NCBI GenBank assembly: GCA_016187225.1
Contig: JACPKC010000010.1
Coordinates: 67,541-131,540 of the forward strand
Direction of reading: 5' to 3'
DNA: 64,000 nt
From: Candidatus Berkelbacteria bacterium
GTDB taxonomy: Bacteria > Patescibacteriota > UBA1384 > JACPKC01
The notes under the pieces were generated by a model. It was given only the letters and a program-made list of their open reading frames with translations. It searched no databases and had not been told where the DNA came from. Positions within the stretch are counted from its first letter, which is position 1. The number at the start of each line of letters is the position of its first letter. Below, one piece after another: positions 28,894 through 63,641 of the stretch. The translations under genes and the position numbers were made by a program.

Positions 28894-30546
28894 TTACTCG
28901 TTCCCGTGGAAGGGTCGGCGGATAATAAAGTATGAGACAATACCCGAAAGGATCGATGCTATCAGAAGAACAATGATTAGATTCGCTCCAGAACTTGCGA
29001 GTTTGACGGGTGCGCCTTTGCCGTCGGTTTTGGTTTGGACGACAACCGGTTCTTTTGCTGTTACTGCTTGTGTGCCAAGTATCTTCTCGCCTTGACGAAC
29101 TGTAATCGTATAATTACCGGCCGTCGTGTAGGTATGTTTCAAAGTTGTTGGGCAAGTGACGTTGCTTTGCACAATGCCGTCTCCAAAATCAACAGTTAAG
29201 TTGGTAATCGTATCGCCGGTGCAAGTAAAGGCAACTTCAAACGGCACTGTGCCTGTGGTTGGGGTCACTGCAAAGGTTCCTGTTGGGGGAGTGACGACAG
29301 TTTGAATTTGGGTTTGTGAAATTGTAAAAGAGGCGCTCTTGCTTTGAGTTTTATTTTCGGCCAAATAACTAACAGTCACAATATAGTTGCCTGAAGCGGC
29401 CGTCAGGCCGTCGGATTTTTTCTGATCCCAGGTCCAGGTCTTCGACTGGCCAATACTTAAATCGATGAGCGCTTGAGTCGAGATCGGCTCAAAGATCGCC
29501 GTGGAACCTTGCAGAATCTTAAAGGGCGCCCCATTCGGCAATTGAACCTTTGCTTCGCCAGTGTTTTTAAGCGTAAATTCCACCAGTTCAGCCGGTTTGT
29601 AGATGCTTTTCGAGGTTGTCAAGCTAACCGAAATTACTTTAGGCTTCTCAATGGGTTTGGGTTCTTCTTTGGGCTGTGTAGTCGTGACGGTTTTTGTATC
29701 GACAGTCTTACCATTGACGATCAGAGTGACTGTAAAAGTTCCCACCGAAGTATAAGTATGGGTTTCAGCGGCATTTGCATCGTCTAGGGTTGTGCCATCG
29801 CCAAAGTTCCATTTAATCTTGGGCGAGGCGCTACCGCCTTGCGGCGGTGTATAGGTGGCTGTTACCTTTAAGGGAATATTTCCCGTTGTTGGCTCGACCA
29901 CCATTGTGCCCAAATCATTTGGATCATGCAGAGCACTAAACGCAAAATCATCAATTCCAAAACCGTCAGTAGTGCCAGGAGCATTTTTCTTTAAGCGAAT
30001 CTCGGCAATGCCACTATCCGCAGTGGTGGCAGCAAGAGTGACTGGTGAGTTTACGCACTGACCACCCCCAGGAGCATTAACGGTCTTTGTAGCGATGCTC
30101 TTACCGTCAATATCAAATGCTTCAATACTTACTTCGGCATTGCCAGCATTCCCAATAGAAAAATTCATAGAATCACTGACACGCCCCTGGGTAAACTTTA
30201 TCACTAGAGGAGCGTATGAGCTTGGTTTTGCGATTAGAATATTTGGCTCCGACGGCACTTTGTAGCTTGGGCAAGCCGCACTTGCCCCAGACGCCGCAAA
30301 AAGCGTTGCACCGCTACCGCCGCCGTCCGGACTCAAAATCTCTACACCTTTGTCGGCATAGGCATCGCCAGCAATATCGCCTGAAGATTTATCATCCCAG
30401 TTGAGAGTGGTTTTTTCTGTCGCAATGTCGGCTTGTGAGAGCTGAAAAGTTTGAATGCTCCAATAGCCTAAACTCGCACTAAAAATTAGCGCGCTCACAA
30501 CCAGCGCTTGCCGCACTCTCAAGTATAACGGTGGTATTTTAGCCAC
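28894..30546 (-). CDS. Cell-surface protein with PKD domains, an N-terminal signal/anchor and a C-terminal TM anchor
   Basis: PKD signatures 'KIKWNFGDGTT...THTYTSVGTFTVTL' and 'VDFGDGIVQ...HTYTTAGNYTITV'. The C-terminal tail 'KLASSGANLIIVLLIASILSGIVSYFIIRRP' has the form L-x-S-S-G-A-N + TM + RR. Confidence 0.75.
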   Translation of the reverse strand: MAKIPPLYLRVRQALVVSALIFSASLGYWSIQTFQLSQADIATEKTTLNWDDKSSGDIAGDAYADKGVEILSPDGGGSGATLFAASGASAACPSYKVPSEPNILIAKPSSYAPLVIKFTQGRVSDSMNFSIGNAGNAEVSIEAFDIDGKSIATKTVNAPGGGQCVNSPVTLAATTADSGIAEIRLKKNAPGTTDGFGIDDFAFSALHDPNDLGTMVVEPTTGNIPLKVTATYTPPQGGSASPKIKWNFGDGTTLDDANAAETHTYTSVGTFTVTLIVNGKTVDTKTVTTTQPKEEPKPIEKPKVISVSLTTSKSIYKPAELVEFTLKNTGEAKVQLPNGAPFKILQGSTAIFEPISTQALIDLSIGQSKTWTWDQKKSDGLTAASGNYIVTVSYLAENKTQSKSASFTISQTQIQTVVTPPTGTFAVTPTTGTVPFEVAFTCTGDTITNLTVDFGDGIVQSNVTCPTTLKHTYTTAGNYTITVRQGEKILGTQAVTAKEPVVVQTKTDGKGAPVKLASSGANLIIVLLIASILSGIVSYFIIRRPFHGNE

Positions 30547-34642: not shown

Positions 34643-37153
34643 ATGGTGAACCCTCAAGCCCAAAATAATTTGGAGATTCTCAAAAAAACGGCCGCTGAAC
34701 TCGGCCTTGAGCTTGTCGCACTCACCCAGGACACTCCTGAACAATCCGCCCTGGCTCTGGTGCCCGAAGCATTGGCGCGTCAATATCAGTTACTGCCTTT
34801 AACTCTTAAAGAGAAATCACTCACTCTCGTCTTAACTGATCCAGCGCTCTTGACAAAACCAGCGCCCAAATTTCTGCAGGAACTCAAGCAAAACGGGTAT
34901 CATCTGCGTTTGCAACTCACATCCAGCGAGGATTTTCAAACTGCTTTGGGAGCTTATCGACCACAAGTCAATGGCCAGAGGCCACTATCCAGAGTGAATA
35001 ACGCTCAAAGTCAGAACATGCAAGCGAAAACAACTGTGCAGGCAGGTCCTCAACCAGTAACTAGTATACCCCCAGTCGCTTCACCCGCACTTTCGGTGCC
35101 AGCCTCGGTGCATTCGGCGCAAGTCGAGTTAGTTATATTGAAAAGCAGAGAAGTGCCTTTGAACGTTTTAAACAAATTCCCCCAGGACGTGGCGAAAAAG
35201 TATCAGATGGTTGTGTTTGAACTTTCAGCCGACGGTCAGGAGGCATCCGTTGCCGCCCTTAAACCTAACGACCGTCGAATTCGAGAAATTCTCAAGTTTA
35301 TTGAGGCGCGAAACAAGGTTCGAATTCATTTATTCTCGGCGAGTAAAGAGGATATTGAAGGAGTATTGAAGCAATATGACACAGAGCACAGAGAAGACAA
35401 AAAACCAGCCCAAGCTCCAACGCCAATTTCTTCGATCTCTACTCCGCCTGCGCAGAAGTCAGCCATGGTTTCGGCGCCACTAAAGCCGAGTTTTGCGCCG
35501 ACAATTCTCACTCCTTCAGTGAAACCTAATTCTGTGTCGCGCATTCCACCCAAACCCGTTTCAGCGCCGCTCCCAGTTGTCCCCAAAAGACCTATCTTGT
35601 CGCCTTTGCCGACGCCGCTGGCGGCGCGGCCAGTTACGCCCATTGGGCCCAAAATCGGCGGCCTTACACCAGCTCAACCAATTGCGCCCGAGACGCCAAA
35701 TAGTTTGGGCACGACCGATCTTAAATCATACCAAGAAGCAATCATTCGTAATTCTGCCACTCTTCGAGATCCAAGTACGCCGGTTCCAACGGTCGAAGTT
35801 GGTGATTTACAACTCCCAACCAATCAACTTGGCGTGGGCGAGTTGCCGGAAGGACAAGCGCCGATTATGATAACCAATATCGGCGCAGAAGATAAAAATC
35901 TCGACATAGTTCTCGGCACGACCGTTGAAACTTCTGAACAACTTGAGCAAATTCTTAAATCTGGCATGGTGCCAAAAATTGTCGCCGCGATCGTGTTTTA
36001 CGCCACTGCCGTGGCCGCATCCGATATTCACATGGAGGCTGGTGAGAAAGAGGTTCGGATTCGCTTTCGTGTTGATGGCACTTTACAGGAAATTATCAAA
36101 TTGCCGGTTCAACTTTTGGCGCCGATTGTGTCGCGCATCAAAATTTTAGCCAAACTCAAAATCGATGAATCGCGCATCCCGCAAGATGGCCGTTTCGGGG
36201 TGATTGTGCAAAAGCGGGAAATTGATCTGCGAGTTTCAACCCTGCCAACAGTTTTCGGCGAAAAAGTGGTTATGCGGATTCTCGATAAAGAAAAAAGTTT
36301 GAAAAAACTCACTGAATTGGGTATTCAGGGTACTAATCTCGCTCGAATCCAGTCAGCAATCAAAGACCCCTTTGGTATCATTTTAGTGACTGGTCCGACC
36401 GGTTCAGGCAAGACCACAACACTTTACGCGATGTTAACTGAACTCAATACCGCAAGTGTCAACATTGTTACTCTCGAAGACCCGGTCGAGTATCAGCTTG
36501 ATGGCATCAATCAGACCCAGGTCAAGCCAAAAATCGGCTTTGGTTTTGCCGATGGTTTACGTTCAATTCTGCGGCAAGACCCGAACATTATTATGGTTGG
36601 CGAGATTCGCGATGGAGAGACTGCCGGCCTGGCAACTCAAGCCGCGTTGACCGGTCACCTGGTGCTTTCAACTTTGCATACCAACGACTCATCTGGAGCG
36701 CTTCCCCGGATGATCGATATGCACGTTGAACCATTCCTCCTAGCTTCTTCGGTGAATATCGTGATTGCCCAGCGTTTGATTCGTCGCTTGTGCTCAAAGT
36801 GTCGCCAGCCAGCCTCAATTCCGGCCGAAACTCTCACTCGCATTCAGCAGGAGCTCGCCTCGGCATTCGCTCCTGAACTTAAATCAGCGGCGAGTAAGCA
36901 ACTTTCTTTCTTCGGCCCAAATCAAAAGGGCTGCAATGTCTGTCATAATGGTTATAAGGGTCGGGTCGGGATTTACGAAGTTCTAATTACCAGTCCGGCT
37001 ATCGCCGATCTCGTTCTTGCTAAATCCGCCTCGTCCAAAATTGCGGCTAAAGCTCACGAAGAGGGGATGATCACACTTAGAGAAGACGGCATCCTTAAAG
37101 CCATGCAAGGTGAAACATCGCTTGACGAAGTCATTCAAGCCACCAGCGAATAG
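34643..37153 (+). CDS. pilB: Type IV pilus assembly ATPase PilB (GspE family) with a duplicated N-terminal T2SSE_N-like domain and a Pro-rich linker
   Basis: Walker A 'VTGPTGSGKTTTLYAML', Asp box 'IMVGEIRD', His box 'GHLVLSTLHTND', and the tetracysteine motif 'CSKCRQ...CNVC'. Two N-terminal domains are separated by an approximately 150-aa Pro/Ala/Ser-rich segment. Confidence 0.9.
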   Translation: MVNPQAQNNLEILKKTAAELGLELVALTQDTPEQSALALVPEALARQYQLLPLTLKEKSLTLVLTDPALLTKPAPKFLQELKQNGYHLRLQLTSSEDFQTALGAYRPQVNGQRPLSRVNNAQSQNMQAKTTVQAGPQPVTSIPPVASPALSVPASVHSAQVELVILKSREVPLNVLNKFPQDVAKKYQMVVFELSADGQEASVAALKPNDRRIREILKFIEARNKVRIHLFSASKEDIEGVLKQYDTEHREDKKPAQAPTPISSISTPPAQKSAMVSAPLKPSFAPTILTPSVKPNSVSRIPPKPVSAPLPVVPKRPILSPLPTPLAARPVTPIGPKIGGLTPAQPIAPETPNSLGTTDLKSYQEAIIRNSATLRDPSTPVPTVEVGDLQLPTNQLGVGELPEGQAPIMITNIGAEDKNLDIVLGTTVETSEQLEQILKSGMVPKIVAAIVFYATAVAASDIHMEAGEKEVRIRFRVDGTLQEIIKLPVQLLAPIVSRIKILAKLKIDESRIPQDGRFGVIVQKREIDLRVSTLPTVFGEKVVMRILDKEKSLKKLTELGIQGTNLARIQSAIKDPFGIILVTGPTGSGKTTTLYAMLTELNTASVNIVTLEDPVEYQLDGINQTQVKPKIGFGFADGLRSILRQDPNIIMVGEIRDGETAGLATQAALTGHLVLSTLHTNDSSGALPRMIDMHVEPFLLASSVNIVIAQRLIRRLCSKCRQPASIPAETLTRIQQELASAFAPELKSAASKQLSFFGPNQKGCNVCHNGYKGRVGIYEVLITSPAIADLVLAKSASSKIAAKAHEEGMITLREDGILKAMQGETSLDEVIQATSE

Positions 37154-37161
37154 GAGTTCCG

Positions 37162-38268
37162 ATGGTTGAGACGCAATCCACGCAAGCCATGTTGGGCGCC
37201 AACGATCGCTCACTTTCACCACATTTAAGCGAGATGCTTAAATTCGCAATTGAACATAGCGCTTCTGACTTACACATTCAAATCGGCGTGCCGCCAGTTA
37301 TCCGCATCGACGGCAAACTTCGCTCGGTGCCAGATCAGCCCCTTTATACTCAAGAATCGGCGGCCGCCGACGTGCTTTCGAGTCTAGGGACCGTGCAACG
37401 CGAACGCTTTGCGACCGAACGCGAACTCGACTTTTCTTTTACCTTTGAAACGATGCGCTTACGTTGCAATGTTTACTATGAAAAAGGCAACATCGTCGGC
37501 GCTTACCGATTAATTCCAACTCAAATTCGAACTGTTGAACAACTTGGCTTGCCGCCGGTTTTGGTTCAGTTAACCGAACACAAACAAGGACTCGTGATTA
37601 TTACTGGCCCAACTGGCCATGGCAAATCCACCACGCTGGCGGCTTTAATCGACCATATTAATCACAATCGCTCCGAGCACATTATTACAATTGAGGATCC
37701 AATCGAGTACATTTTCGCAAATCAGAAAAGCGTCATCTCCCAACGTGAAGTGGGCTTCGATACCAAAACTTTCGCCAATGCCTTGCGCGCTTCCATGCGC
37801 CAAGACCCGAATGTAATTTTAGTCGGTGAGATGCGCGATTTGGAAACGATGGCTTCAGCGTTAACGCTCGCTGAAACTGGTCATTTAGTTTTCACAACTT
37901 TGCACACCAACTCCTCGGCCGAAACCGCTGATCGCATTATCGATGTCTTTCCGCCGCATCAACAACAGCAGATTCGCTCTCAACTTGCCTCGGTTTTATT
38001 GGGCGTCATTTCTCAACGTCTCCTGCCTAAAATCAATGGCGGGCGAGTTGCGGCGGCAGAAATTATGCTGGGCACAACCGCCGTTCGAAATACCATTCGC
38101 GAGGGCAAGACTCATCAGCTCGACAATATTATTCTCACCGGTTCAGCCGAGGGTATGATTAATCTCGATGCTGTGCTTGCCGGTCTCGTTAATAAGGGGG
38201 AAGTTACAATTGACGATGCGATCAACTGGGCGCGCGATTCTAAACAACTCAAGATTAATATCTTTTAG
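37162..38268 (+). CDS. pilT: Twitching motility (pilus retraction) ATPase PilT
   Basis: 'ITGPTGHGKSTTLAALIDHIN', 'ILVGEMRD', 'GHLVFTTLHTNS' and the AIRNLIRE-like block 'AVRNTIREGK' are present. Confidence 0.9.
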   Translation: MVETQSTQAMLGANDRSLSPHLSEMLKFAIEHSASDLHIQIGVPPVIRIDGKLRSVPDQPLYTQESAAADVLSSLGTVQRERFATERELDFSFTFETMRLRCNVYYEKGNIVGAYRLIPTQIRTVEQLGLPPVLVQLTEHKQGLVIITGPTGHGKSTTLAALIDHINHNRSEHIITIEDPIEYIFANQKSVISQREVGFDTKTFANALRASMRQDPNVILVGEMRDLETMASALTLAETGHLVFTTLHTNSSAETADRIIDVFPPHQQQQIRSQLASVLLGVISQRLLPKINGGRVAAAEIMLGTTAVRNTIREGKTHQLDNIILTGSAEGMINLDAVLAGLVNKGEVTIDDAINWARDSKQLKINIF

Positions 38269-38270
38269 TT

Positions 38271-39353
38271 ATGCCCGAGCCCGTAAAAAAACCCGCCCTC
38301 AAGTTCGAGATTGATATTCCTTTTTTGAATAATGTTTCAGTGAGAGAGAAGTCTTTTTTAGCGCGCCAGCTGGCCACGATGCTTGCAAGCGGTTTGGCGC
38401 TTAATCGTGCCGTGGCTATTCTCGTAGCTCAAACTCAAAACAAAACCCTTAAAACGGCGCTTCAGGGTATTGAAACAGATCTCGAGGGCGGCTTGCCGTT
38501 TTCGGGCGCAATTGCCAAACATCCAAAGATTTTTGACCGAGTTTTCGTGAACGTGGTAATTTCGGGCGAAAGCGTGGGGCGCTTGGCGGATGTGCTCAAT
38601 CAACTTGCCGACCAGCTTGAAAAAGATTCCGGCTTCATGAATCGAGTTAAAGGCGCTCTGGCTTATCCAGCCTTTGTCTTTGTGGCGATGATCGTTGTCG
38701 GCGCAATTACGATGGTTTACATCATTCCGCAACTTCAAAGTGTCTTCGAGGAAGCCGGCGCCGAATTGCCATTTTTAACTCGCATGATTATCGCTATAAG
38801 TCATTTTCTACAAAACTATTGGTGGTTAATTATTATTTTTGTCGTCGTAGGTTTAGCTGTTGGTCGCACATATTTTCGTTCCAAAGCGGGCGAGCGTCTC
38901 TGGGGGCTGATTCAACTTCACCTTCCAGGGCATCTTGGCTACGATATCTATATGGCCAGGTTTAATCGCACCCTGGGAATGCTCGTGCAAGCCGGCACAC
39001 CAATTATCGAAGCAATCAGTGTCACGGCGTCGGTGATGGATAATCTGCTTTATCGCGAGTATTTGGCGGCGGCGGCCGATCAAGTTAAACGCGGCGTCCC
39101 GCTTTCCGTGCCTCTTCAAAAAACCGCGCTTTTTCCGCTCATTGTTGGCCAGATGATCGCAGTTGGCGAGCAAACAGGTCGCCTCGATCAGATTCTCTTA
39201 AAACTCGCCGAGTATTATGAAGAGGAAGCAGATAGTAAAATCAAGCAATTAAGCAGTTTAATTGAGCCGATTGTAATCGTTTTGATCGGTGTTGGAGTGG
39301 GGATTCTTGTCTATGCGATCCTGGTGCCAATCTATAATATCGCACAGTTCTAA
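38271..39353 (+). CDS. pilC: Type IV pilus platform protein PilC (GspF family)
   Basis: It has two T2SSF repeats and about three TM segments. A GspF-type block 'AYPAFVFVAMIVV' is present. Confidence 0.88.
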   Translation: MPEPVKKPALKFEIDIPFLNNVSVREKSFLARQLATMLASGLALNRAVAILVAQTQNKTLKTALQGIETDLEGGLPFSGAIAKHPKIFDRVFVNVVISGESVGRLADVLNQLADQLEKDSGFMNRVKGALAYPAFVFVAMIVVGAITMVYIIPQLQSVFEEAGAELPFLTRMIIAISHFLQNYWWLIIIFVVVGLAVGRTYFRSKAGERLWGLIQLHLPGHLGYDIYMARFNRTLGMLVQAGTPIIEAISVTASVMDNLLYREYLAAAADQVKRGVPLSVPLQKTALFPLIVGQMIAVGEQTGRLDQILLKLAEYYEEEADSKIKQLSSLIEPIVIVLIGVGVGILVYAILVPIYNIAQF

Positions 39354-56308: not shown

Positions 56309-56461
56309 GTTCTTTCTCGCGTTCTGACTAGGAGCCGCGGAGAGTTGTCGGAGAGCGTTGCTCAAAGACAGTGCCCCTCCTTCCCGGCTGCCCCTCGGGT
56401 CTGGTTCCAGCTTGCTGGCGCCGGCCTGGTCAGAACATGGGGAAGAATAAAGAGGAAGCTA

Positions 56462-59434
56462 ATGTCAGAAAATCACGAGCAATCGAGAGCTAATCCAACG
56501 CCTGAAGGTTCGCATCAAGTTGAGAGTCAGGCAATTTCGCATATCCAAAATGCAATTCCTGAATATCAGCAGAATACGCCAAGTTTCGTAGCGTACAACT
56601 CGCACACTACTCAATCTATTGCTTCTGTTCGCGCTCAAATTGCAAACTACACTGAAAAACATCGCTTGAGTCAGGAAGCGCTTGCTATCCCGCGCGCGAG
56701 CATGCTTGGCAAAATTAAACAATCGCTCACGGTTCCCGCCACACCCGAACACCCAACTCGACTCCAGACTTTTTCCTCAAAGTTTCGAGAGTTTTGGCAC
56801 AAATCAAGCACGCGGTGGGCGCGTTTCGGCGCTGGCGCCGTTGCGACCGGTACAGCCTTCGTGGGCGTTGCCACAGCTAATCCGGTTTTAATTGGTCTTG
56901 GTTTAAGTGGCCGAGTCGCGCTTTCTGGAGCGGGCGCTTTCGCCACCTCTCAAACTTCTATGGAGGGCCGCGATTTGCGCCGTGAAACTAACACCAGCGA
57001 AAAACTCTCACCAATTCGTTGGCTAAAGGGTATCTTTAATAAAAACGCGCTTGCTTTAACTCCTCGAGAGCTTCAATCGATGCAAGTTGAGGAAAGGCAG
57101 GAGCGTTTAGGCAAAACTCTTGCAACGGCCCGAGCAATGGGCGCCGGGAATGTTTTTGATGTTACCAGCCAGCCAACGGCTCTTGAGCAACTCGTCACTT
57201 ATTCTCTGCATACCACGCGCCGGGTTGAACAAGTGCGCCAGGCGCTTCAGAATCGTTTAGAGAGAACTAAATCGAAAGATGCCGGAGTTCAAGCGCAGGC
57301 GCTTCAAAAGTTTGATCAATACAAACTCAACGCAACTCTAAATCGAATTCATATTCACCGATCAAAGTTTTTTGATAATCAAGAAGCCAAGATCGAGCGT
57401 GAAAATTTTGTTCAAGCGGTGGAAAATCATGCAGTCAACAATTTGGTTGAGGCTAAGCAGACTGCTAAAAAGCGCACCTGGATTGCCGCCGCATGGGGCG
57501 CGGGTGCGGCTTTGGTAACGGGATTAACGGGTTTAAAACGCATTGAAACGGCTGAACTTTCCTCCAATTACGGCGAAGGTGTTGGGCCGGCGCTCAAACG
57601 TCTAGTCGAAGGAATTAAGAACATTCCGGGCAATCTAAAAGCGATGGCTGAACGCATCTACGACGATTATTTGCGGCCGACGCCAGAAGTGACGGTTCCC
57701 CCTGCCAGTATTTCTTCTACCGTTCCTGAAGTCATTGGCAGTTACGCTTATCAAAAATCACTCTTGCAAGCCATCGAGAAGGCGCGTGAAACTGGCACGA
57801 ATGCGCCAATTTGGCAAGCGCTCACTGATCTTAAGAAGCAGGGAATTGTTTTAAGCGATGTCTTGACAGCAGACAATAAGAACGAACAGGGTCTCTCTTT
57901 CATTGATTACCTCAAGTTAAACGTTGATCGTTTTCAATCGCCAGAGGAACAGCCGGCGTTGCACAAGCTACTTTCCAGTCAGATCGATGCTCATGGCATC
58001 AGTTCAAGCTATGTCAATGAAAGTCATATCAACTACGCCAACGCGCGCGGTATCAGCACAACTCTTCACGGCAAAAAACTTGAAGCGATGTTCGATAGTC
58101 ATGGCCGTGTGGCGGATTTAGAACTTGGCGGCGTCAATCGTCCGGATCTAATTGAATATATCTCAACTAGCGATGGCCGCTTGTGCTTTGATGAAGTTGC
58201 TTTTAGCGCCGATCACCCGATGCCGGAAGTTGCGCGTCGAAATCCTTTTGCTTTGCCGCAACTGGTTCAAGATGAAATGGTACAGGCAACCGGTAAATTG
58301 CCAGCCACCGACGTTATTGAGCAGCCACAACCGATCGATGCTTTTATTGGGGCGCATAAAGGCGTTAAATACTATGAATATAACTTTGGTGATCATGAGC
58401 TAGTGACTTTCACGCAACCGAGTGGAACATTTGAAGTTTGGGAAAAAGTTGATCTAGGCGTGCGCGGAGTCGGCATTCAACCGGCGGCCGAATTTAGGGA
58501 AATTTTTCAGGGCGCGGAACTGCCAAAGCCAGATTATGGCGTTGAGTATCAGGGCGAGTATCAGGTTTCATTTGAGAATGACTTTGGCGGTCCGATCACG
58601 GCCGAGCGAGTTGCTGGTTTCAGTCAAGAAGAGTTAGCGCACTTCAAGAAAGTGGCCGCCGATCGAGAATCGATCACTCGGTTCTTGAGTCGGCACAGTA
58701 TTGAGAGCCAAAATTTCTTTGTGAATGCGGAATTAGTTAATAGCAAGAATGCGGCTGATGGTACCTGGACAACGTTCTATAATCCAAACGCCCAGTTTGG
58801 TAGCCCCGATACCGGTGTAAAGATTCGTTTCGACGAAGTTGGTCAGGTACAAGAAGTCAAAATGGCCCACATTCCAGTGAACGTTGAGGAAACCCGTCGC
58901 CTCGATGCCTATGTGAGCGAAATGGCCCGTCAGGCGGAGCAGAGTGGTACTGGCGTGAACACTGCCGAAACCGCACGGCTCGATGATGCAGTTCGCGCAC
59001 TGGCTCGCGGAGATCAGGCCAAAGCCACAGTTACTCCAGTTGCTTCGTTTGTAACGAACTCAATGGTGAATACATCGGTTCTGGATGCGCGACCTGAAGT
59101 TGTAGCCCCGCCTATTCAACAAGATGTTATCCATGAGCCAGTAGTAAAGGTTCCAGCGCATACTGATTTTCAAACGTCGATAATGTCGCCTGCGATAGAG
59201 CAGGTTCAGACTCAAAATGAACTTCCTCGAATCGATCTCGCGCCTGAAATTGCGCAACCAGAAGCAATCACTTCAAGCGAAGTACCATTTATGCAAGTCA
59301 TTCCTGAATCGGTTAACGAGACATCTCAAGCGCCGCGCTTGCCTGTAATTTCAGAAAATGTTGAACCGGCTGGATCGGTAGGAGAGAGCGGAGTTTTGCC
59401 GGTGATTCAAGTTGATTCCGAACTCGAAAAATAA
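56462..59434 (+). CDS. Large hypothetical protein (about 990 aa) with two Gly/Ala-rich hydrophobic segments and a Pro/Val/Glu-rich C-terminus
   Basis: The start is taken at the ATG after the AAGAGGAAG SD. The hydrophobic segments are 'GAGAVATGTAFVGVATANPVLIGLGLSG' and 'WIAAAWGAGAALVTGLTGL'. No recognizable catalytic motif. Confidence 0.6.
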   Translation: MSENHEQSRANPTPEGSHQVESQAISHIQNAIPEYQQNTPSFVAYNSHTTQSIASVRAQIANYTEKHRLSQEALAIPRASMLGKIKQSLTVPATPEHPTRLQTFSSKFREFWHKSSTRWARFGAGAVATGTAFVGVATANPVLIGLGLSGRVALSGAGAFATSQTSMEGRDLRRETNTSEKLSPIRWLKGIFNKNALALTPRELQSMQVEERQERLGKTLATARAMGAGNVFDVTSQPTALEQLVTYSLHTTRRVEQVRQALQNRLERTKSKDAGVQAQALQKFDQYKLNATLNRIHIHRSKFFDNQEAKIERENFVQAVENHAVNNLVEAKQTAKKRTWIAAAWGAGAALVTGLTGLKRIETAELSSNYGEGVGPALKRLVEGIKNIPGNLKAMAERIYDDYLRPTPEVTVPPASISSTVPEVIGSYAYQKSLLQAIEKARETGTNAPIWQALTDLKKQGIVLSDVLTADNKNEQGLSFIDYLKLNVDRFQSPEEQPALHKLLSSQIDAHGISSSYVNESHINYANARGISTTLHGKKLEAMFDSHGRVADLELGGVNRPDLIEYISTSDGRLCFDEVAFSADHPMPEVARRNPFALPQLVQDEMVQATGKLPATDVIEQPQPIDAFIGAHKGVKYYEYNFGDHELVTFTQPSGTFEVWEKVDLGVRGVGIQPAAEFREIFQGAELPKPDYGVEYQGEYQVSFENDFGGPITAERVAGFSQEELAHFKKVAADRESITRFLSRHSIESQNFFVNAELVNSKNAADGTWTTFYNPNAQFGSPDTGVKIRFDEVGQVQEVKMAHIPVNVEETRRLDAYVSEMARQAEQSGTGVNTAETARLDDAVRALARGDQAKATVTPVASFVTNSMVNTSVLDARPEVVAPPIQQDVIHEPVVKVPAHTDFQTSIMSPAIEQVQTQNELPRIDLAPEIAQPEAITSSEVPFMQVIPESVNETSQAPRLPVISENVEPAGSVGESGVLPVIQVDSELEK

Positions 59435-59540
59435 TCTTTGAGAGTCTTAGAGCTTTTCACTTTGTGTGTAAAGCTTGATAGGCGTTCAAAGCGGAACGTT
59501 AAAAATTTAGAAAAAATAAGAAGGAAGGGGGTACTCAAAG

Positions 59541-60455
59541 ATGGGTACTCGTAAAAATGGGAACGTTTTTTTTCTTATCGTCGCGCTGGTGGTGAGTGTG
59601 ATGACGATACCAGTGTTCGCACTGGGTTTTCTCGGGCCAATCCTGACTTTCGGGATGTGGTTAGCCGAACAGTTTCGTGACCAGCACCATCGGGCGGAGA
59701 CTCATTCGCCGACGGTTTCATTCGTAATTCAGGTGCCTGACAAGTATCGTCAGCGCGCCGATGAATTTCGGATCGAAACCGACATGGTGATAATCCCGCC
59801 AAGCGAGTCGGGCTACACGTACCGACTCATTAAGGAAGATGGTGGGATGCTTTGGCCAACGACCGTCCGCGTCTGGACTCCGACTTCGGGGTATGAGATT
59901 GAAAAGGTCGAACTGCGGGAGGGGAACCACGTTGTCGATAAGATCGAAGGCAAGCGACTGAAGGCGATGAAGTATTTCGACCTTCAGTTGCCAGATTCGG
60001 TCGGTAACGCGCGGGGTTCGCCCGACCACTTCGAAGTGGTCTTCTACCTTCCGGACGATGAGGAGGAGCGCGTGTCGTGTTCCTTCAGTGTTTTGGCGCT
60101 GACGATCTACGACTGGTATCTGCAGTACGATGAACTGCAAAACCAGCGGATTGGGCGCCGAATGGCTGAAACGCCGCGCCAACTCCACCCTGAGCGGACC
60201 GAGACGGTGACGGTAATCGTTGAGACCGAGACCGGTCTGACGGTTATCGACACCGTAGGGGTGAATCCGCAGGACCGGGCGGCAATCGCTTTCTCGGAGA
60301 AGGTTCAGCCGGGTGTCTATCGCATTCGGGTCAAACCGGGTGCGGTCCGCATCGGTCTGGACCGGCCCGGAGTGGCGACTCCGCCGCCGATTCAAGACGG
60401 TTTCTACGCCGTCGCGCCTGGGTCGCAAACCCAGATCACATTGAAAGGGAGGTAG
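59541..60455 (+). CDS. Membrane-anchored hypothetical protein (304 aa) in a GC-rich segment
   Basis: SD AAGGAAGGGGG. N-terminal TM hairpin 'VFFLIVALVVSVMTIPVFALGFLGPILTFGMWL'. Local GC and codon usage (CGG/GGG/GTC-rich) differ from the flanks. Confidence 0.6.
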   Translation: MGTRKNGNVFFLIVALVVSVMTIPVFALGFLGPILTFGMWLAEQFRDQHHRAETHSPTVSFVIQVPDKYRQRADEFRIETDMVIIPPSESGYTYRLIKEDGGMLWPTTVRVWTPTSGYEIEKVELREGNHVVDKIEGKRLKAMKYFDLQLPDSVGNARGSPDHFEVVFYLPDDEEERVSCSFSVLALTIYDWYLQYDELQNQRIGRRMAETPRQLHPERTETVTVIVETETGLTVIDTVGVNPQDRAAIAFSEKVQPGVYRIRVKPGAVRIGLDRPGVATPPPIQDGFYAVAPGSQTQITLKGR

Positions 60456-60460
60456 AAAAG

Positions 60461-61237
60461 ATGAAAATTTTTTTCATCTTGTTAGCAGTTTTTTTTCTGG
60501 CGGGTCTGCCCACCAGTGCGCGTGGGTATTTGGTACCCGGCAAGAACCCGCAGTCGCCGGCGATCCGGAACGCGGGCAACGAAGTGACGGCGCTCCGGAT
60601 CGCCCAGGAGAAGGGCTGGCGGGTCTACCAGTTGCCCGTCAATACCTACGTGGGTAACTACGGCGCTTCCGGCGAGTTTGTCCGGGGTGTCTTGCCCAGG
60701 GGCGCCTGGATGGGCACAGACGGTACCCACGAGTACGTCGTGGGTTATACCGACGGCCGAGGGGTTTGGCGTGGGTGCGGAAACCTGACCGATCGCATCC
60801 CACCGCCGCCGCCAGTGCGCATTCCACCACCATCGCCGCCGAAGCCGCCGCCCCTCATCCCCTTCATACCGATCACTTCGGGTCTCGTGGTGACTCACGA
60901 GTGGCGGGGTGAGAAGAGTGGCGCGGCGACCGCCAGCGAGTTCTTAACTCGCAACCCGGTTCAAGCGCCGACTATTGTCGGGGATGCCAAGGTGAGCATC
61001 AGCCAGGTGCAAACCCAGGCTCAACCCCTGGCCTTCCCAGACTTTAATATTTCGGCTTTGTCTTCGGCAAACGCCGAAACCGGGCCGATCCAAAACAACA
61101 ACTCCGCCACCTCCCAGGCGAGTAACGTGAACACCGTGCCGATCGGTGTGAACACCGGGCCTGGGAGCGTGACGGTGACTGGGAGTGGCGCGGGTACGCA
61201 AACCGCGCCCACCCAGCAGAACAATTTGATCAGATAG
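60461..61237 (+). CDS. Secreted hypothetical protein (258 aa) with a Pro-rich linker and an N/S/T-rich C-terminal repeat-like segment
   Basis: SD AAAGGGAGG. Signal peptide 'FFILLAVFFLAGLPTSARG'. Polyproline 'IPPPPPVRIPPPSPPKPPPLIP'. The C-terminus 'IQNNNSATSQASNVNTVPIGVNTGPGSVTVTGSG' resembles the repeats of the next gene. Confidence 0.6.
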   Translation: MKIFFILLAVFFLAGLPTSARGYLVPGKNPQSPAIRNAGNEVTALRIAQEKGWRVYQLPVNTYVGNYGASGEFVRGVLPRGAWMGTDGTHEYVVGYTDGRGVWRGCGNLTDRIPPPPPVRIPPPSPPKPPPLIPFIPITSGLVVTHEWRGEKSGAATASEFLTRNPVQAPTIVGDAKVSISQVQTQAQPLAFPDFNISALSSANAETGPIQNNNSATSQASNVNTVPIGVNTGPGSVTVTGSGAGTQTAPTQQNNLIR

Positions 61238-61399
61238 CAACAAGGAGGAGTTGCTGTCTGACAGAGTCTTACCCCGAGCTTCGGCTCGGGGGATATTTCC
61301 TCTAGTCAAATCATGTTGACTGGAGGAAAGTATCAATTGAGGGCGTGCGCTGGTCGAAGCGGGCGAGAGTGCAAATATCGGAAAGGTGGTGAATAAACT

Positions 61400-62230
61400 A
61401 TGCAAAAATCTATCGCAATCGTTGCGTTTGCCTTGATGGTGACAGCTGGATCCTCAAGTGTATTCGCGGCGACCGTGCAAAATAACAACAGCTCTACGAG
61501 TCAGAGCCAGAACACTAACGCCGTTACAACGGTTGTTAATACTGGCAGTGGCTCCGCGGCTGGTTCAAGTAGTTCGGCGAGCGCCCAGGATTCGTCAACG
61601 AATCAATCGAACGAGAGGCAATCAACTTCGACTTCGCAAAGTTCGGGCACTGCGACTACAGGTTTGGTGCAAAATAACAATGTTAGCACCAGTCAAAGCC
61701 AGAACGTAAACGCCACCACAACGGTTGTTAACACCGGCAGTGGGAATGTGAGCGGCTCGGCGAGCGCCAGTGGCGGTCAAGCGTCAGAAACAACGCAAAG
61801 CAACTTTGCTTCTGGAAACAGCCAAAATCGGACCGAAAATAACAACAGTTCGATTAGCCAAAGCCAGAACGTGAATTGCGGCACAACCGTTGTCAATACC
61901 TCATCAGGTGATGCCTCTGGTGCGTGTGCGGCGGCAGGTAGCCAAACGGCAACTACGACACAGTCGAACACAACCGAACAGACTCAAACGAAAAAGAATG
62001 AGACCAAGATTGAACAAGCCCAATCAGTGGCACAAGCAACTTCAGTGGCTGGTGTTCCAACCACAACCACTCAAGTCCCGCCGGTTACAACCAAAACCGA
62101 GCTTCCGAAAGAGCTCCTGAAGACGGGTGCAAATACGGTTGCTCTCGCGCTTGGTAGCGCAGTGATCTCAGCCGGTGGCGCAGCATTCGCTCGTCGCAAG
62201 CAGATGGTCGCAGATCTCATCGTTGGCTAA
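61400..62230 (+). CDS. Surface repeat protein: signal peptide, three tandem repeats of about 38 aa (VQNNNxSTSQSQNxNAxTTVVNTGSG...), Thr-rich stalk and a C-terminal LPXTG-like sorting signal
   Basis: Three tandem repeats are visible. The C-terminus 'LPKELLKTGANTVALALGSAVISAGGAAFARRKQ' is a motif + hydrophobic helix + basic tail. Confidence 0.7.
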   Translation: MQKSIAIVAFALMVTAGSSSVFAATVQNNNSSTSQSQNTNAVTTVVNTGSGSAAGSSSSASAQDSSTNQSNERQSTSTSQSSGTATTGLVQNNNVSTSQSQNVNATTTVVNTGSGNVSGSASASGGQASETTQSNFASGNSQNRTENNNSSISQSQNVNCGTTVVNTSSGDASGACAAAGSQTATTTQSNTTEQTQTKKNETKIEQAQSVAQATSVAGVPTTTTQVPPVTTKTELPKELLKTGANTVALALGSAVISAGGAAFARRKQMVADLIVG

Positions 62231-62255
62231 TGCTAACGGTATGTTTTAAGGGGCC

Positions 62256-62281
62256 AAAACGACGCGGAAACGCGTCGTTTT
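62256..62281 (+). terminator. Rho-independent terminator after the repeat protein gene
   Basis: Perfect 11-bp stem AAAACGACGCG-GAAA-CGCGTCGTTTT followed by T-rich sequence. Confidence 0.85.
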
Positions 62282-62321
62282 GCGTTGAAGGAGGGGGAGC
62301 CATCTGGTACACTACCGAACC

Positions 62322-63305
62322 ATGGAAGAGCAATTCGATGAGGGTAAACTCAAACTCTACGATCTTCTCAAACTCGGAGAGAAAGAAACGTTGATCCGGA
62401 CCATCGAAGCCGAAATGGCACTGCCGGAGTTTTGGGCTGACCGAATCCGCGCTGAAACTCGTTCAAAAGAGCTGGCGAGTGCCAAATCACTCATCGAGGA
62501 GTGGGAGCGCGCAGAGACTCCAGAGAGTTTACGAACGTTAGAACTCAAAGCAGTGTTGGCCGGCCAGTACGATGCCAGCAACGCAATCGTCTCGCTTCAT
62601 GCCGGTGCTGGTGGCACTGAAGCGCAGGATTGGACGAGTATGCTCAAGCGAATGGTAGAGCGCTGGGCGGAGCACAAGGGATTTTCAGTGACCCTGCTTG
62701 ATGAATCCCGCGGCGAAGAAGCCGGACTCAAATCCGCAACGCTCAAGATTGAGGGGCCATACGCCTATGGATACCTCAAGGCTGAAGCTGGGGTTCACCG
62801 TCTTGTCAGGATCTCTCCGTTTGATTCCGATAAAGCCCGCCATACATCATTCTCGCTCGTAGAAGTTGTACCGGAACTACGCGAGGTAGGGGATATAGAG
62901 ATCGACGAAAAAGATCTACGGATCGATCTCTTCCGAGCCGGTGGCCATGGTGGTCAGAATGTGAATAAAGTAGAAACGGCGGTTCGCCTTACACATATTC
63001 CGACCGGAATTGTTGTAACATCACAGAACGAACGATCACAGGCACAGAATCGAGAGTTGGCAATGAAGGTGCTGATTGCAAAGCTACAGGTACTTGCCGA
63101 ACAGGCACATCTCGACAAGATCTCTGAACTGAAAGGTGAGCATCGGAAGGTAGAGTGGGGGAGTCAAATTCGTTCATACGTCCTCCAGCCGTACCGGCTG
63201 GTGAAGGATGTTCGAACGGGTCATGAAGAGTCTAATGTTGATGCCGTGCTCGATGGTAATCTCGATCCATTTATAGAAGCGTATCTCGAACAACAGGTAA
63301 AATAA
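62322..63305 (+). CDS. prfB: Peptide chain release factor 2 (short form, 327 aa)
   Basis: SPF motif '[15 protein letters not shown]' and GGQ motif '[25 protein letters not shown]'. No in-frame upstream extension (stop at 62286) and no CUU-UGA-C frameshift site found. Confidence 0.85.
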
Positions 63306-63338: not shown

Positions 63339-63641
63339 ATGCCAGGCATGTTTGACCAAGCGAAAGCGCTCCTTAAGGCGCGGAAGGCCCAGCAAGAGTT
63401 AAAAAAAACCGAGATTGAGGCGAGTGGGGGAGAGGGTAAGGTATTGCTCGTTTTTACCGGAGATCTCAAGCTGAAATCGATTACTCTTGACGAGTCATTG
63501 CTTGCGCCAGAGCGTAAAGCCGAGCTCGAGCGCTTACTCAAGGACACTTTTACTCAAGGTATGCAGGAAACCCAGCAAGTGGCGGCCGATAAAACGCGGG
63601 GCGTGATGCGCGATCTCGGCATGAATATCCCGGGGATGTAG
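63339..63641 (+). CDS. ybaB: Nucleoid-associated protein YbaB/EbfC family
   Basis: 'MFDQAKALLKARKAQQEL...GEGKVLLVFTGDLKLKSITLDESLL...LERLLKDTF' is the YbaB pattern. Confidence 0.8.
   Translation: MPGMFDQAKALLKARKAQQELKKTEIEASGGEGKVLLVFTGDLKLKSITLDESLLAPERKAELERLLKDTFTQGMQETQQVAADKTRGVMRDLGMNIPGM

What the first reader, a model, noticed from the sequence alone, without database searches (positions are those of the whole stretch)
59541..61240. Compositionally atypical (GC-rich) two-gene island encoding a membrane protein and a secreted Pro-rich protein
From about 59.5 to 61.2 kb the GC content rises to roughly 58-60%, against about 48% in the flanks. Codon usage shifts to CGG/GGG/GTC/GCG-rich. 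Long antisense ORFs appear on the minus strand, as expected in high-GC DNA. The island encodes a 304-aa protein with an N-terminal TM hairpin and a 258-aa secreted protein with a polyproline linker, both with good SDs. The composition break suggests horizontal acquisition. The C-terminal segment of the second protein resembles the repeats of the native-composition gene that follows. This hints at a shared surface-protein family assembled from parts of different origin.
Basis: seen in the sequence. Interest (0 to 1): 0.55.

Follow-up and report, generated by a model that had tools for sequence, protein, structure and literature searches.

The report
GC-rich native surface-protein operon, not island
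The GC-rich stretch is real, but it is one two-gene operon of a cell-surface gene cluster that sits at the same chromosomal spot in every related Berkelbacteria genome found, so it is a native, fast-evolving surface locus with odd codon usage rather than recently imported DNA.

Summary
Window 59541-61240 is 58.7% GC against 47.4±1.7%. Third-codon-position GC (GC3) is 0.67 and 0.74 against 0.46±0.035. The high-GC3 stretch matches two co-oriented genes: X (304 aa) and Y (258 aa).

Recent horizontal acquisition is not supported.
- Two independent assemblies reproduce both junctions exactly.
- There is no tRNA, flanking repeat, phage hit or Rfam hit.
- Seven other lineages have an X-Y-Z cluster after cysS; prfB follows in the four contigs that reach that far.
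- GC3 is raised by the same amount in L013, the only relative with the same X type, although synonymous sites between the two are saturated.
- In the other relatives the rise is weaker, absent or reversed.

I conclude this is a native operon. It carries either a pressure of its own on synonymous sites or alleles exchanged with relatives; which one is unresolved.

Functionally, Y has a signal peptide, a confidently modelled ~95-aa domain with no match in the structure or family libraries searched, a proline-rich linker, and a tail. That tail copies the repeat module of the wall-anchored neighbour Z. In each lineage the tail matches its own Z, and the match is held by selection (dS>1, dN/dS 0.1-0.3). 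This suggests Y docks on Z. That step is inferred, not shown.

The parts
56345..59434 (+). BIG: 1029-aa protein with no family assignment and hydrophobic segments. It is the upstream member of the cluster and has normal composition (GC3 0.447). It is context, not part of the GC-rich unit.
   Evidence: ORF. No Pfam, NCBIfam or PHROG hit. Only L013 has a gene in the same place (939 aa), 33% identical over 84 aa, E 3e-7. GC3 falls to 0.30-0.38 at its 3' end.
59520..59531 (+). Shine-Dalgarno sequence GAAGGAAGGGGG, 9 nt before the ATG of X.
   Evidence: Read directly from the sequence.
59541..60455 (+). Gene X (304 aa; HYW32_03410, annotated from Met21 as 284 aa). It has an N-terminal hydrophobic anchor or signal of about 31 aa, a conserved W-x-AE-x-FRDQH-x-R-x-E-x-H-x-P motif, and a strand-rich body. 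It is the first gene of the GC-rich operon.
   Evidence: GC3 0.672. Self-hit P0001 only in the word-indexed search. A real homologue exists: L013:8995-9999, 41% identity over 305 aa, E 2e-67, and the alignment supports the 304-aa start. No Pfam, NCBIfam, PHROG or PDB-sequence relative. The single-sequence AlphaFold2 model is poor, pLDDT 50, with helix 4-50.
60444..60452 (+). Shine-Dalgarno sequence AAAGGGAGG of Y, inside the last codons of X. The X stop and the Y start are 5 nt apart, which suggests translational coupling.
   Evidence: Read directly from the sequence.
60461..61237 (+). Gene Y (258 aa; HYW32_03415), a secreted modular protein and the second gene of the GC-rich operon.
   Evidence: GC3 0.737. 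Family of 228-275-aa proteins with the same architecture.
60461..60523 (+). Y signal peptide (residues 1-21, MKIFFILLAVFFLAGLPTSA|R).
   Evidence: Judged by inspection of the sequence. All homologues have an equivalent N-terminus. No signal-peptide predictor was available.
60524..60805 (+). Conserved N-domain of Y (residues ~22-115): 2 helices and 6 strands. Invariant residues include Q57, W83 and C106-G-N-x-T.
60797..60871 (+). Proline-rich linker of Y (residues 113-137, IPPPPPVRIPPPSPPKPPPLIPFIP).
   Evidence: Translation. Modelled as disordered. Similar Pro-rich linkers occur in P0005 and P0009; other relatives have a VFGPTVYPTAPMP linker.
61073..61234 (+). C-terminal N/Q/S/T/G-rich module of Y (residues ~205-258). 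It is one copy of the repeat module of Z.
   Evidence: Smith-Waterman score 130 against its own Z, z = 15.3. 22-23 of 46 residues are identical to Z repeats 1 and 2. Nucleotide identity is only 50%, with dS saturated.
61272..61291 (+). GC-rich hairpin CCCCGAGC-TTCG-GCTCGGGG after Y, terminator-like. It marks the 3' end of the X-Y unit.
   Evidence: Terminator scan. RNA fold of the spacer has z = -4.1. A strong hairpin lies at the same place after Y in the seven of eight other loci where I could see one; I saw none in L014.
61292..61334 (+). Second, 18-bp-stem hairpin or palindrome directly after the first. Its role is unknown (RNA structure or operator in front of Z).
   Evidence: Self-complementary BLAST hit, 84% over 45 nt. 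Predicted fold.
61400..62230 (+). Gene Z (276 aa): signal peptide, three repeat modules (cores at 61479-61542, 61671-61734 and 61836-61899), a T/Q-rich stalk, then a sortase-type sorting signal (LLKTG at 62114-62128, hydrophobic stretch, RRKQ). Composition is normal.
   Evidence: Repeat family D1. Orthologue L006_Z, 44% identity, E 1.5e-33, with canonical LPKTG. L013 and L011 have LPATG and LPKTG. Sorting-signal scan. GC3 0.509.
62260..62281 (+). Hairpin CGACGCG-GAAA-CGCGTCG followed by TTTT after Z, a probable terminator before prfB.
   Evidence: Read directly from the sequence. The consensus scan did not list it.

Best explanation
The GC-rich segment is one native two-gene operon, X (59541-60455) and Y (60461-61237). 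It belongs to a lineage-restricted cell-surface gene cluster that sits directly downstream of cysS in all seven other lineages recovered. prfB follows the cluster wherever the contig reaches that far. The window genome is annotated as Candidatus Berkelbacteria; the relatives are uncultivated bacteria of the same kind. It is neither a recently inserted foreign island nor an assembly artefact.

Shown:
- Conserved synteny.
- Homologues found only in this cluster.
- A composition shift confined to synonymous sites and bounded by the operon.
- The same offset, about +0.23 GC3, in the only other lineage with the same X type. Synonymous sites between the two lineages are saturated.

Inferred, on composition: the high GC3 is probably a steady-state property of this transcription unit. 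The cause would be selection on the mRNA or on translation, or GC-biased gene conversion at a recombination-prone surface locus. It is probably not a memory of foreign origin. The cause itself is not identified.

Inferred, on function:
- Y is exported.
- Its new ~95-aa domain is held on a proline-rich spacer.
- The support is that each lineage's Y tail matches its own Z module, and that selection rather than gene conversion keeps the match.
- X is a co-expressed, N-terminally anchored, strand-rich partner. I guess it acts in assembly or anchoring; nothing tests this.
For: Synteny. Gene order is nusG-rplK-dprA-topA-recR-cysS-[X]-[Y]-[Z]-prfB-ybaB-pth-rplA in L006, L010, L011/L012, L013 and L095. 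Fragments of the same order are in L001, L004 and L009. The window shows the same order.

Restriction. The exhaustive profile search found 9 clusters, 7 of them with E<=1e-10. X has a homologue in L013.

Assembly. L098 and L099 are 100% identical to the window over 8460 and 5020 nt, spanning both junctions.

No mobility marks.

Only synonymous sites are shifted. X has a fraction of G+A+R+P residues of 0.273 against 0.263±0.028. Its GC at fourfold-degenerate sites is 0.689 against 0.508±0.048.

This is not the codon bias of highly expressed genes. rplU and rplK have GC3 0.41. Ribosomal-protein genes of L006, L011 and L095 are at background.

L013 has X/Y GC3 of 0.89/0.87 against 0.65±0.04, with sharp gene-bounded edges.

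Saturation. At identical amino acids the same codon is used about as often as chance predicts, for X, Y, cysS and prfB.

The BIG and Z flanks are too diverged to serve as homology arms for exchange with distant relatives.

Tail-to-Z match. Own-lineage Smith-Waterman z is 15.3, 14.0, 14.7 and 20.6, and cross-lineage values are mostly around 0-3. The exceptions are the window and L006, whose tails also match each other's Z because they share one module type, and two weaker cases near z 5. In L001, L006 and L011 the full-length alignment falls on Z's first module. A tail-only alignment in L006 picked a later repeat instead. dS is 1.2-2 or more, dN/dS 0.1-0.3, amino-acid identity 64-82%.

The N-domain is modelled with confidence. 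A hairpin follows Y in most lineages.
Against: The GC3 offset is not universal.
- About +0.12 to +0.14 in L006.
- About +0.03 to +0.09 in L009 and L095.
- Zero in L011.
- Negative in L010, at -0.10 and -0.04.
A general operon-specific force therefore has to be specific to one clade.

Other points against:
- The codons favoured are the genome's rare ones.
- The island is the top outlier of 135 windows in dinucleotide signature, and second lowest in tetranucleotide correlation. However, X-Y segments of most lineages share the low-GpC, high-ApC pattern, including L011 where GC3 is not raised. That points to protein composition as the cause.
- Three X families that cannot be aligned to each other occupy the same slot.
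- The window's Y N-domain is closest to L001, L004 and L009 (57-66% identity), although cysS places that group furthest away (42%).
- No physical evidence exists for Y-Z binding, for sortase anchoring (no sortase gene in the window) or for co-transcription.
- In the A/G/S-rich lineages L013 and L014 the tail-to-Z match cannot be told from a composition effect (z 1.8 and 0.7).
Confidence: 0.62

Rival explanations
1. Cassette replacement within the lineage. The resident X-Y operon was replaced, after the window lineage split from the sampled relatives, by the equivalent operon of an unsampled relative with higher GC. The high GC3 and rare codons would be un-ameliorated donor composition.
For: - GC3 offsets differ in size and sign among lineages, from +0.27 to -0.10, as if cassette composition were uncoupled from the host.
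- Dinucleotide and tetranucleotide signatures are outliers.
- Three X families that cannot be aligned share one slot.
- The window's Y N-domain is more similar to L001, L004 and L009 than cysS distances predict.
- Relatives with GC3 of about 0.8 in every gene exist (L011).
Against: - No sampled lineage is a recent donor. Synonymous sites are saturated against all of them.
- The same +0.23 offset in L013 would need a second, independent event from an even GC-richer donor.
- The composition break coincides with the X start and the Y stop. The flanking BIG and Z genes are too diverged to serve as homology arms.
- X has host-like amino-acid composition.
- The Y tail matches the resident Z.
- Quartet distances do not give a clean topological conflict.
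- The signature anomaly is shared by X-Y segments in lineages without raised GC3.
Confidence: 0.22
2. Foreign island. The two genes were acquired from outside this lineage, from an unrelated GC-rich bacterium, phage or plasmid.
For: Atypical GC, GC3, rare codons and nucleotide signature. Neither protein has a family assignment.
Against: - The slot is conserved in seven other lineages.
- Apart from one low-scoring partial hit in a 965-aa repeat protein (P0010), homologues of Y were found only in genomes with this synteny, out of 1.84 billion representative proteins.
- No PHROG family, no viral contig for X, and no viral fold match for Y. The viral-contig scan for Y itself failed to run.
- No tRNA or flanking repeat.
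- The Y tail is homologous to the native Z.
Confidence: 0.03
3. Artefact. Either the segment is an assembly chimera, or its composition is driven by a real overlapping gene on the minus strand.
For: The source is a metagenome-assembled genome. Antisense ORFs of 236, 138 and 153 aa exist.
Against: - Two independent assemblies from two sequencing runs are identical across both junctions.
- The antisense ORFs are in the codon-aligned frame and within the range of synonymous shuffles.
- GC3 > GC1 > GC2 periodicity fits the plus-strand frames.
- The plus-strand proteins have homologues.
Confidence: 0.02

Closest known systems
Streptomyces chaplins: long ChpA-C with a sortase signal, plus short secreted ChpD-H
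   Same: A wall-anchored protein with several copies of a module and a C-terminal sortase signal is paired with a secreted protein that carries one copy of the same module. Co-assembly through the shared module is thought to tether the secreted partner to the cell surface (PMC5618241, read). Here Z has 3 modules plus an LPXTG-type signal, and Y has 1 module and no anchor.
   Different: - There is no sequence relationship. No Pfam hit of any kind, so none to the chaplin domain PF03777.
- The module is polar (N/Q/S/T/G-rich), not hydrophobic.
- Y carries a globular domain and a proline-rich spacer in front of the module.
- Amyloid or cross-beta structure is not shown here.
- The organism is a CPR (Candidate Phyla Radiation) bacterium, not an actinomycete.
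Curli CsgA/CsgB (major subunit and surface-bound nucleator sharing imperfect repeats)
   Same: Two adjacent genes encode secreted proteins that share Q/N/S/G-rich repeat units. One is thought to template or hold the other on the cell surface. This comparison rests on my own knowledge of the curli literature.
   Different: No Curlin-repeat Pfam hit. I saw no CsgG/E/F-type secretion genes. Anchoring here is by a sortase-type signal. Only one module of Y is shared.
Sortase-anchored LPXTG surface proteins of Gram-positive and CPR bacteria
   Same: Z has a signal peptide, a repetitive stalk, an LPXTG-type motif, a hydrophobic stretch and a basic tail. Sortases are found in more than half of CPR genomes (PMC6744442).
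   Different: The window's motif reads LLKTG after a four-residue duplication (ELPK-ELLK-TG). No sortase gene is in the window. NCBIfam sorting-signal models score below their cut-offs.
Classical genomic islands (horizontally acquired, compositionally atypical)
   Same: Sharp GC, codon and oligonucleotide break over about 1.7 kb.
   Different: No tRNA or direct repeats, and no integrase noticed in the flanks. The genes are present at the orthologous site in the relatives. Homologues are confined to the lineage.
GC-biased gene conversion raising GC3 of recombining bacterial genes
   Same: GC enrichment limited to synonymous sites of a fast-evolving surface locus, with no change in protein composition. 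That recombining bacterial genes tend to have higher GC3 is from my own knowledge (Lassalle et al. 2015, PLoS Genetics); I did not check the paper here.
   Different: The enrichment in X is mainly G rather than G+C: at fourfold sites G is 0.47 and C is 0.22. The edges follow the operon. Recombination was not measured. The effect is absent or reversed in some relatives.

Membership tests
Horizontally acquired genomic island | Composition and codon usage deviate from the host genome | tested here: met
   GC 58.7% against 47.4±1.7%. GC3 z = 5.9 and 7.9. Dinucleotide distance delta* 0.122 against 0.057±0.019.
Horizontally acquired genomic island | Absent from the orthologous site of related genomes | tested here: not met
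   X-Y-Z follows cysS in all seven other lineages recovered, and prfB follows the cluster in the four contigs that extend that far.
Horizontally acquired genomic island | Mobility marks: tRNA target, flanking direct repeats, integrase or transposase, phage genes | tested here: not met
   - The nearest tRNA is 32 kb away.
- No flanking repeats.
- No PHROG hits.
- No viral contig for X.
- The neighbours are cysS, prfB and ybaB.
Horizontally acquired genomic island | Gene trees incongruent with housekeeping-gene trees | tested here: inconclusive
   The Y N-domain is 57-66% identical to L001, L004 and L009, against 42% for cysS. Quartet sums still allow a vertical tree with unequal rates. X groups with L013, as cysS and prfB do.
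Assembly chimera | Junctions not reproducible in independent assemblies | tested here: not met
   L098 (run SRR12113424, 88-kb contig) and L099 (run SRR12113420) are identical to the window across both junctions, with 0 mismatches. Read coverage itself could not be examined.
Sortase substrate (LPXTG cell-wall sorting signal), for Z | LPXTG motif, then a hydrophobic segment, then a basic tail at the C-terminus, plus an N-terminal signal peptide | tested here: inconclusive
   The window has ELPKELLKTG + ANTVALALGSAVISAGGAAFA + RRKQ. Orthologues have canonical LPKTG or LPATG. NCBIfam sorting-signal models score below cut-off, E 0.03-0.04.
Sortase substrate (LPXTG cell-wall sorting signal), for Z | A sortase encoded in the genome | not testable with these tools
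   No TLxTC motif in any ORF of the 64-kb window. The rest of the genome is not available.
Chaplin (PF03777) or curlin-repeat functional amyloids | Sequence match to the family's domain model | tested here: not met
   Y and Z have no Pfam family at E<=0.1.
Chaplin (PF03777) or curlin-repeat functional amyloids | Cross-beta fibre formation | not testable with these tools
   Needs biochemistry. The tail is modelled with pLDDT below 50.
Diversity-generating retroelement target | A template repeat matching a variable region, and a reverse transcriptase nearby | tested here: not met
   No repeat of any island segment elsewhere in the window. I saw no reverse transcriptase among the ORFs scanned, but not every ORF was scanned.

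The most novel reading that the evidence does not exclude
A surface-display system specific to this group of CPR bacteria. A secreted protein with a previously unseen small fold is attached to a sortase-anchored stalk by like-with-like pairing of a short polar module. In each lineage selection keeps that module identical between the two partners while it diverges freely between lineages. In one clade the operon that encodes the secreted partner is also held at a GC3 about 0.23 above its genome by a force of its own acting on synonymous sites, independent of the genome's base composition.
Probability: 0.2. Interest if true: 0.62.

Novelty: new variant of a known kind. Interest (0 to 1): 0.4.

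Why it matters
CPR bacteria are thought to live attached to host cells, and their surface proteins are almost entirely uncharacterised. This locus offers three things.
- A conserved, easily located slot between cysS and prfB that holds fast-evolving surface genes.
- A confidently modelled ~95-aa domain with no relative in the structure or family libraries searched.
- A testable attachment principle: a matched module on a secreted protein and on its wall-anchored neighbour.

It is also a caution for island-finders. A textbook composition break, with z of 6-8 for GC3, lies in a gene pair that is native by synteny. If the GC3 offset proves to be a steady state, it would be a clean natural case for separating selection on synonymous sites from biased gene conversion in a small genome.

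Tried and rejected
1. Family searches. Pfam, NCBIfam and PHROGs for X, Y, Z and BIG gave no family, apart from two sub-threshold sorting-signal hits for Z. PDB sequence profiles for X and for the Y domain gave nothing significant.
2. X structure. The single-sequence model is too poor to use, pLDDT 50.
4. Collection scans.
- Genome contigs with Y patterns gave none.
- Genome contigs with prfB returned mostly unrelated phyla, plus one Berkelbacteria contig that starts inside prfB.
- The metagenome scan only re-found L003.
- The viral scan found none for X and could not run for the 9-sequence Y alignment.
5. The third homologous-protein search, with the 8-sequence domain alignment, returned nothing. 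This contradicts, so I treat it as a technical miss.
6. High-expression codon bias: rejected, because ribosomal-protein genes have low or average GC3.
7. Overlapping antisense gene: rejected.
8. Dinucleotide and tetranucleotide signature as independent evidence of transfer: rejected, because X-Y segments share the pattern in lineages without raised GC3.
9. Recent gene conversion as the cause of the tail-to-Z similarity: rejected, because dS is saturated.
10. Remote homology between the three X groups. Groups B and C share only a weak C-terminal ~90-aa match (probability 41%). Group A, which holds the window's X, matches neither.
11. Rfam over 55-64 kb gave nothing.
Full report
**Source and context**

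The window comes from a Candidatus Berkelbacteria metagenome-assembled genome, on a contig of 320,597 bp. The two genes are HYW32_03410 and HYW32_03415. The surroundings are housekeeping genes: ftsW/rodA, rplU, secE, nusG, rplK, dprA, topA, recR and cysS upstream, prfB and ybaB downstream.

**Observation**

The region 59541-61240 has 58.7% GC. All 1700-bp windows outside it average 47.4% (sd 1.7, maximum 51.2).

The excess sits at third codon positions.
- GC3 is 0.672 for gene 1 (X, 59541-60455) and 0.737 for gene 2 (Y, 60461-61237).
- The 41 other ORFs have 0.462±0.035, maximum 0.536.
- Along the DNA, GC3 is 0.30-0.38 at the end of the upstream 1029-aa gene. It is 0.57 rising to 0.75 through X, up to 0.90 in the first half of Y, and 0.62-0.80 to the Y stop. 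It is about 0.5 in the next gene, Z.

CGG rises from 0.13 to 0.39, GGG from 0.14 to 0.35, GCG from 0.31 to 0.51, GTG from 0.25 to 0.44 and CTG from 0.11 to 0.39.

The antisense ORFs of 236, 138 and 153 aa lie in the codon-aligned antisense frame. They are no longer than synonymous shuffles of the same genes produce (p = 0.09 and 0.59). They are a by-product of avoiding TTA, CTA and TCA.

The Shine-Dalgarno sequences, the polyproline linker and the tail similarity to the next gene are all present. Only the 'TM hairpin' is unproven. It is one hydrophobic stretch of about 31 residues, modelled as a single helix.

**Not an artefact and not a mobile element**

- Two contigs assembled independently from two sequencing runs (L098, 88 kb; L099) are identical to the window over 8460 and 5020 nt. 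Both span the junctions.
- There are no flanking direct or inverted repeats.
- No copy of any island segment occurs elsewhere in the window.
- No tRNA lies within 32 kb.
- There is no Rfam hit, no PHROG family, no viral contig for X and no viral fold match for Y.

**Relatives and synteny**

The word-indexed search found only a self-hit for X and two partial relatives for Y. An exhaustive profile search with the Y N-domain over 1.84 billion representative proteins found nine clusters. Seven have E<=1e-10, and eight of the nine are proteins of 228-275 aa. The ninth (P0010, 965 aa, E 3e-5) matches only a 20-residue stretch and is not a family member.

The contigs that encode them show one gene order: nusG-rplK-dprA-topA-recR-(small ORF)-cysS-[X, 334-422 aa]-[Y]-[Z]-prfB-ybaB-pth-rplA-tmk-rplJ-rplL-tgt. 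This order appears in L006, L010, L011/L012, L013 and L095. Fragments of it appear in L001, L004 and L009. L014 shows only X-Y-Z, with no housekeeping flank.

L013 also has a large gene (939 aa) between cysS and X, like the window's 1029-aa gene.

X is not an orphan. L013's X is 41% identical over 305 aa (E 2e-67), and the alignment supports the 304-aa start rather than the annotated Met21.

X proteins fall into three groups that cannot be aligned to one another with confidence.
- Group A: the window and L013.
- Group B: L006, L010 and L011.
- Group C: L001, L004, L009 and presumably L095.
- Groups B and C share a weak C-terminal match of about 90 aa. Group A matches neither.

So the two genes sit in an ancestral slot that holds very fast-evolving proteins.

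**Composition in the relatives**

GC3 of X and Y minus the mean of the housekeeping genes on the same contig:

| Lineage | X | Y | Background and note |
|---|---|---|---|
| window | +0.21 | +0.27 | 0.462±0.035, 41 ORFs |
| L013 | +0.25 | +0.23 | 0.647±0.039, edges as sharp as in the window |
| L006 | +0.12 | +0.14 | z = 2.6 and 3.0 |
| L001 | about +0.1 to +0.19 | same | only fragments available as background |
| L009 | +0.09 | +0.04 | cysS only as background |
| L095 | +0.05 | +0.03 | 0.517±0.048 |
| L011 | +0.01 | +0.02 | 0.792±0.036 |
| L010 | -0.10 | -0.04 | 0.642±0.027 |

At identical amino acids, the window and every relative use the same codon about as often as chance predicts. This holds for X, Y, cysS and prfB, so synonymous sites are saturated. 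Two things follow.
- None of the sampled lineages is a recent donor.
- The equal offset in the window and L013 cannot be a leftover from their common ancestor.

In X the shift is purely synonymous. The fraction of G+A+R+P residues is 0.273 against 0.263±0.028. GC at fourfold-degenerate sites is 0.689 against 0.508±0.048, and most of that is G (0.47 against 0.23).

It is not the bias of highly expressed genes. rplU and rplK have GC3 0.41, and ribosomal-protein genes in the relatives are at background.

The island is an outlier in GC-normalised dinucleotide and tetranucleotide signatures. However, X-Y segments of most lineages share the same low-GpC, high-ApC pattern relative to their own genomes, including L011 where GC3 is not raised. 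I therefore attribute that signal to protein composition.

**What causes the GC3 excess**

I favour a steady-state pressure specific to this transcription unit in the window/L013 clade. The reasons are:
- the offset is the same in two lineages that are saturated relative to each other;
- it starts and stops with the operon;
- it spares amino-acid composition;
- the flanking BIG and Z genes are too diverged to act as homology arms for exchange with a relative of different GC.

Whether the pressure is selection on the mRNA or on translation, or GC-biased gene conversion, is not resolved.

The main rival is replacement by the cassette of an unsampled GC-richer relative. Three observations favour it:
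- the offsets differ in size and sign among lineages;
- the three X families are distributed patchily;
- the window's Y N-domain is closest to the L001/L004/L009 group (57-66% identity), although cysS puts that group furthest away (42%).

Quartet distance sums still allow a vertical tree with unequal rates, so that last conflict is only suggestive.

**What the genes encode**

Y has four parts.
- A signal peptide.
- A proline-rich spacer.
- An N/Q/S/T/G-rich tail.

Z (61400-62230) has a signal peptide, three repeat modules, a T/Q-rich stalk and a sortase-type sorting signal. Orthologues carry canonical LPKTG or LPATG. The window reads ELPKELLKTG.

The last 70 residues of Y match the organism's own Z in every lineage where the module is not pure low-complexity sequence.

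| Lineage | Smith-Waterman score | z against shuffles |
|---|---|---|
| window | 130 | 15.3 |
| L006 | 157 | 14.0 |
| L011 | 167 | 14.7 |
| L001 | 191 | 20.6 |

Cross-lineage scores are at background, with three kinds of exception:
- the window and L006 share one module type, so each tail also matches the other's Z (z 6.7 and 13.7);
- the L006 tail against L001's Z gives z 4.9;
- the L010 tail against L006's Z gives z 4.6.

In L001, L006 and L011 the full-length alignment falls on Z's first module, just after its signal peptide. A tail-only alignment in L006 instead picked a later repeat.

The match is not recent gene conversion. In L001, 37 of 45 aligned residues are identical, but 21 of those use different codons and nucleotide identity is 64%. 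dS is 1.2-2 or more and dN/dS 0.1-0.3 in all pairs. Selection therefore keeps Y's tail like Z's module while the module itself differs greatly between lineages.

The simplest reading is physical pairing of the two like modules, which would display the Y domain on the wall-anchored Z stalk. This is inferred, not shown.

The closest known logic is the chaplin system, in which sortase-anchored long chaplins are thought to tether short secreted chaplins through the shared domain (PMC5618241). Sortases are common in CPR bacteria (PMC6744442). None is encoded in this window.

A strong hairpin follows Y in the window and in seven of the eight other loci inspected; I saw none in L014. The window's Y-Z spacer folds far better than shuffles (z = -4.1). 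This fits X-Y being a separate unit from Z.

X is co-oriented with Y. Its stop lies 5 nt before Y's start, and Y's Shine-Dalgarno sequence lies inside X. X has an N-terminal hydrophobic anchor and a strand-rich body. Its role is unknown.

**Verdict**

The 'horizontally acquired island' reading is not supported as stated. The 'shared surface-protein family' remark is right, and it holds in several other lineages.

The finding is a native surface-protein operon that evolves fast, is restricted to this lineage and has an unexplained excess of GC at synonymous sites. Its products have not been described. It is a new variant of known themes (sortase-anchored stalk plus a module-matched secreted partner), of moderate interest.

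Noticed in passing
window 62102-62128: The sorting motif of Z reads ELPK-ELLK-TG in this genome, where orthologues have ELPKTG or ELPATG. It looks like a 4-residue duplication that turns LPKTG into LLKTG. Z may therefore be a poor sortase substrate or none at all.
   Followed up: partly
window 61238-61399: The Y-Z spacer holds two adjacent strong hairpins: 61272-61291 with a UUCG loop, and an 18-bp stem at 61292-61334. Predicted free energy is -61 kcal/mol, z = -4.1 against shuffles. A hairpin right after Y recurs in most related lineages although the sequences differ.
   Followed up: partly
window 56345-59434; L013:6017-8836: A 1029-aa protein with no family assignment and hydrophobic segments lies between cysS and X. 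Only the window and L013 have it (939 aa there), and they share 33% identity over just 84 aa. Its last ~100 codons have unusually low GC3 (0.30-0.38), right before the GC-rich operon.
   Followed up: partly
window 59541-59603: The public annotation starts gene X at Met21 (284 aa). The Shine-Dalgarno sequence at 59520-59531, the alignment with L013's X and an independent gene call (P0012, 304 aa) all support the longer 304-aa product.
   Followed up: yes
window 61836-61950; L006:10971-11951: The third repeat of Z, and repeats 2 and 3 of the L006 orthologue, each carry a pair of cysteines 16 residues apart (QNVNCGTTVVNTSSGDASGAC). This suggests a disulfide across a beta hairpin within the module.
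   Followed up: no
window 62231-63305: prfB (RF2) is a single 327-aa ORF. I saw no short leader ORF and no CTTTGAC frameshift site in the 90 nt upstream. Relatives call it at 327-344 aa. RF2 appears to lack the usual programmed +1 frameshift and about 30 N-terminal residues.
   Followed up: partly
window 60629-60631 and 60776-60778 (Y residues Q57 and C106): The Y N-domain has one invariant cysteine (in G-C-G-N-x-T) and one invariant glutamine across all nine family members.
   Followed up: no
window 63339-63641: ybaB, a native 100-codon gene, has GC3 0.614, well above the window mean of 0.46. Its orthologues in the relatives are not unusual. This shows how far short genes can scatter.
   Followed up: no
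window 28894-30546 (-) and 34643-39353 (+): Other surface-related genes in the window: a PKD-domain protein, and a type II/IV secretion ATPase (T2SSE with an MshEN domain) followed by further ORFs that I did not scan. All have normal composition.
   Followed up: no
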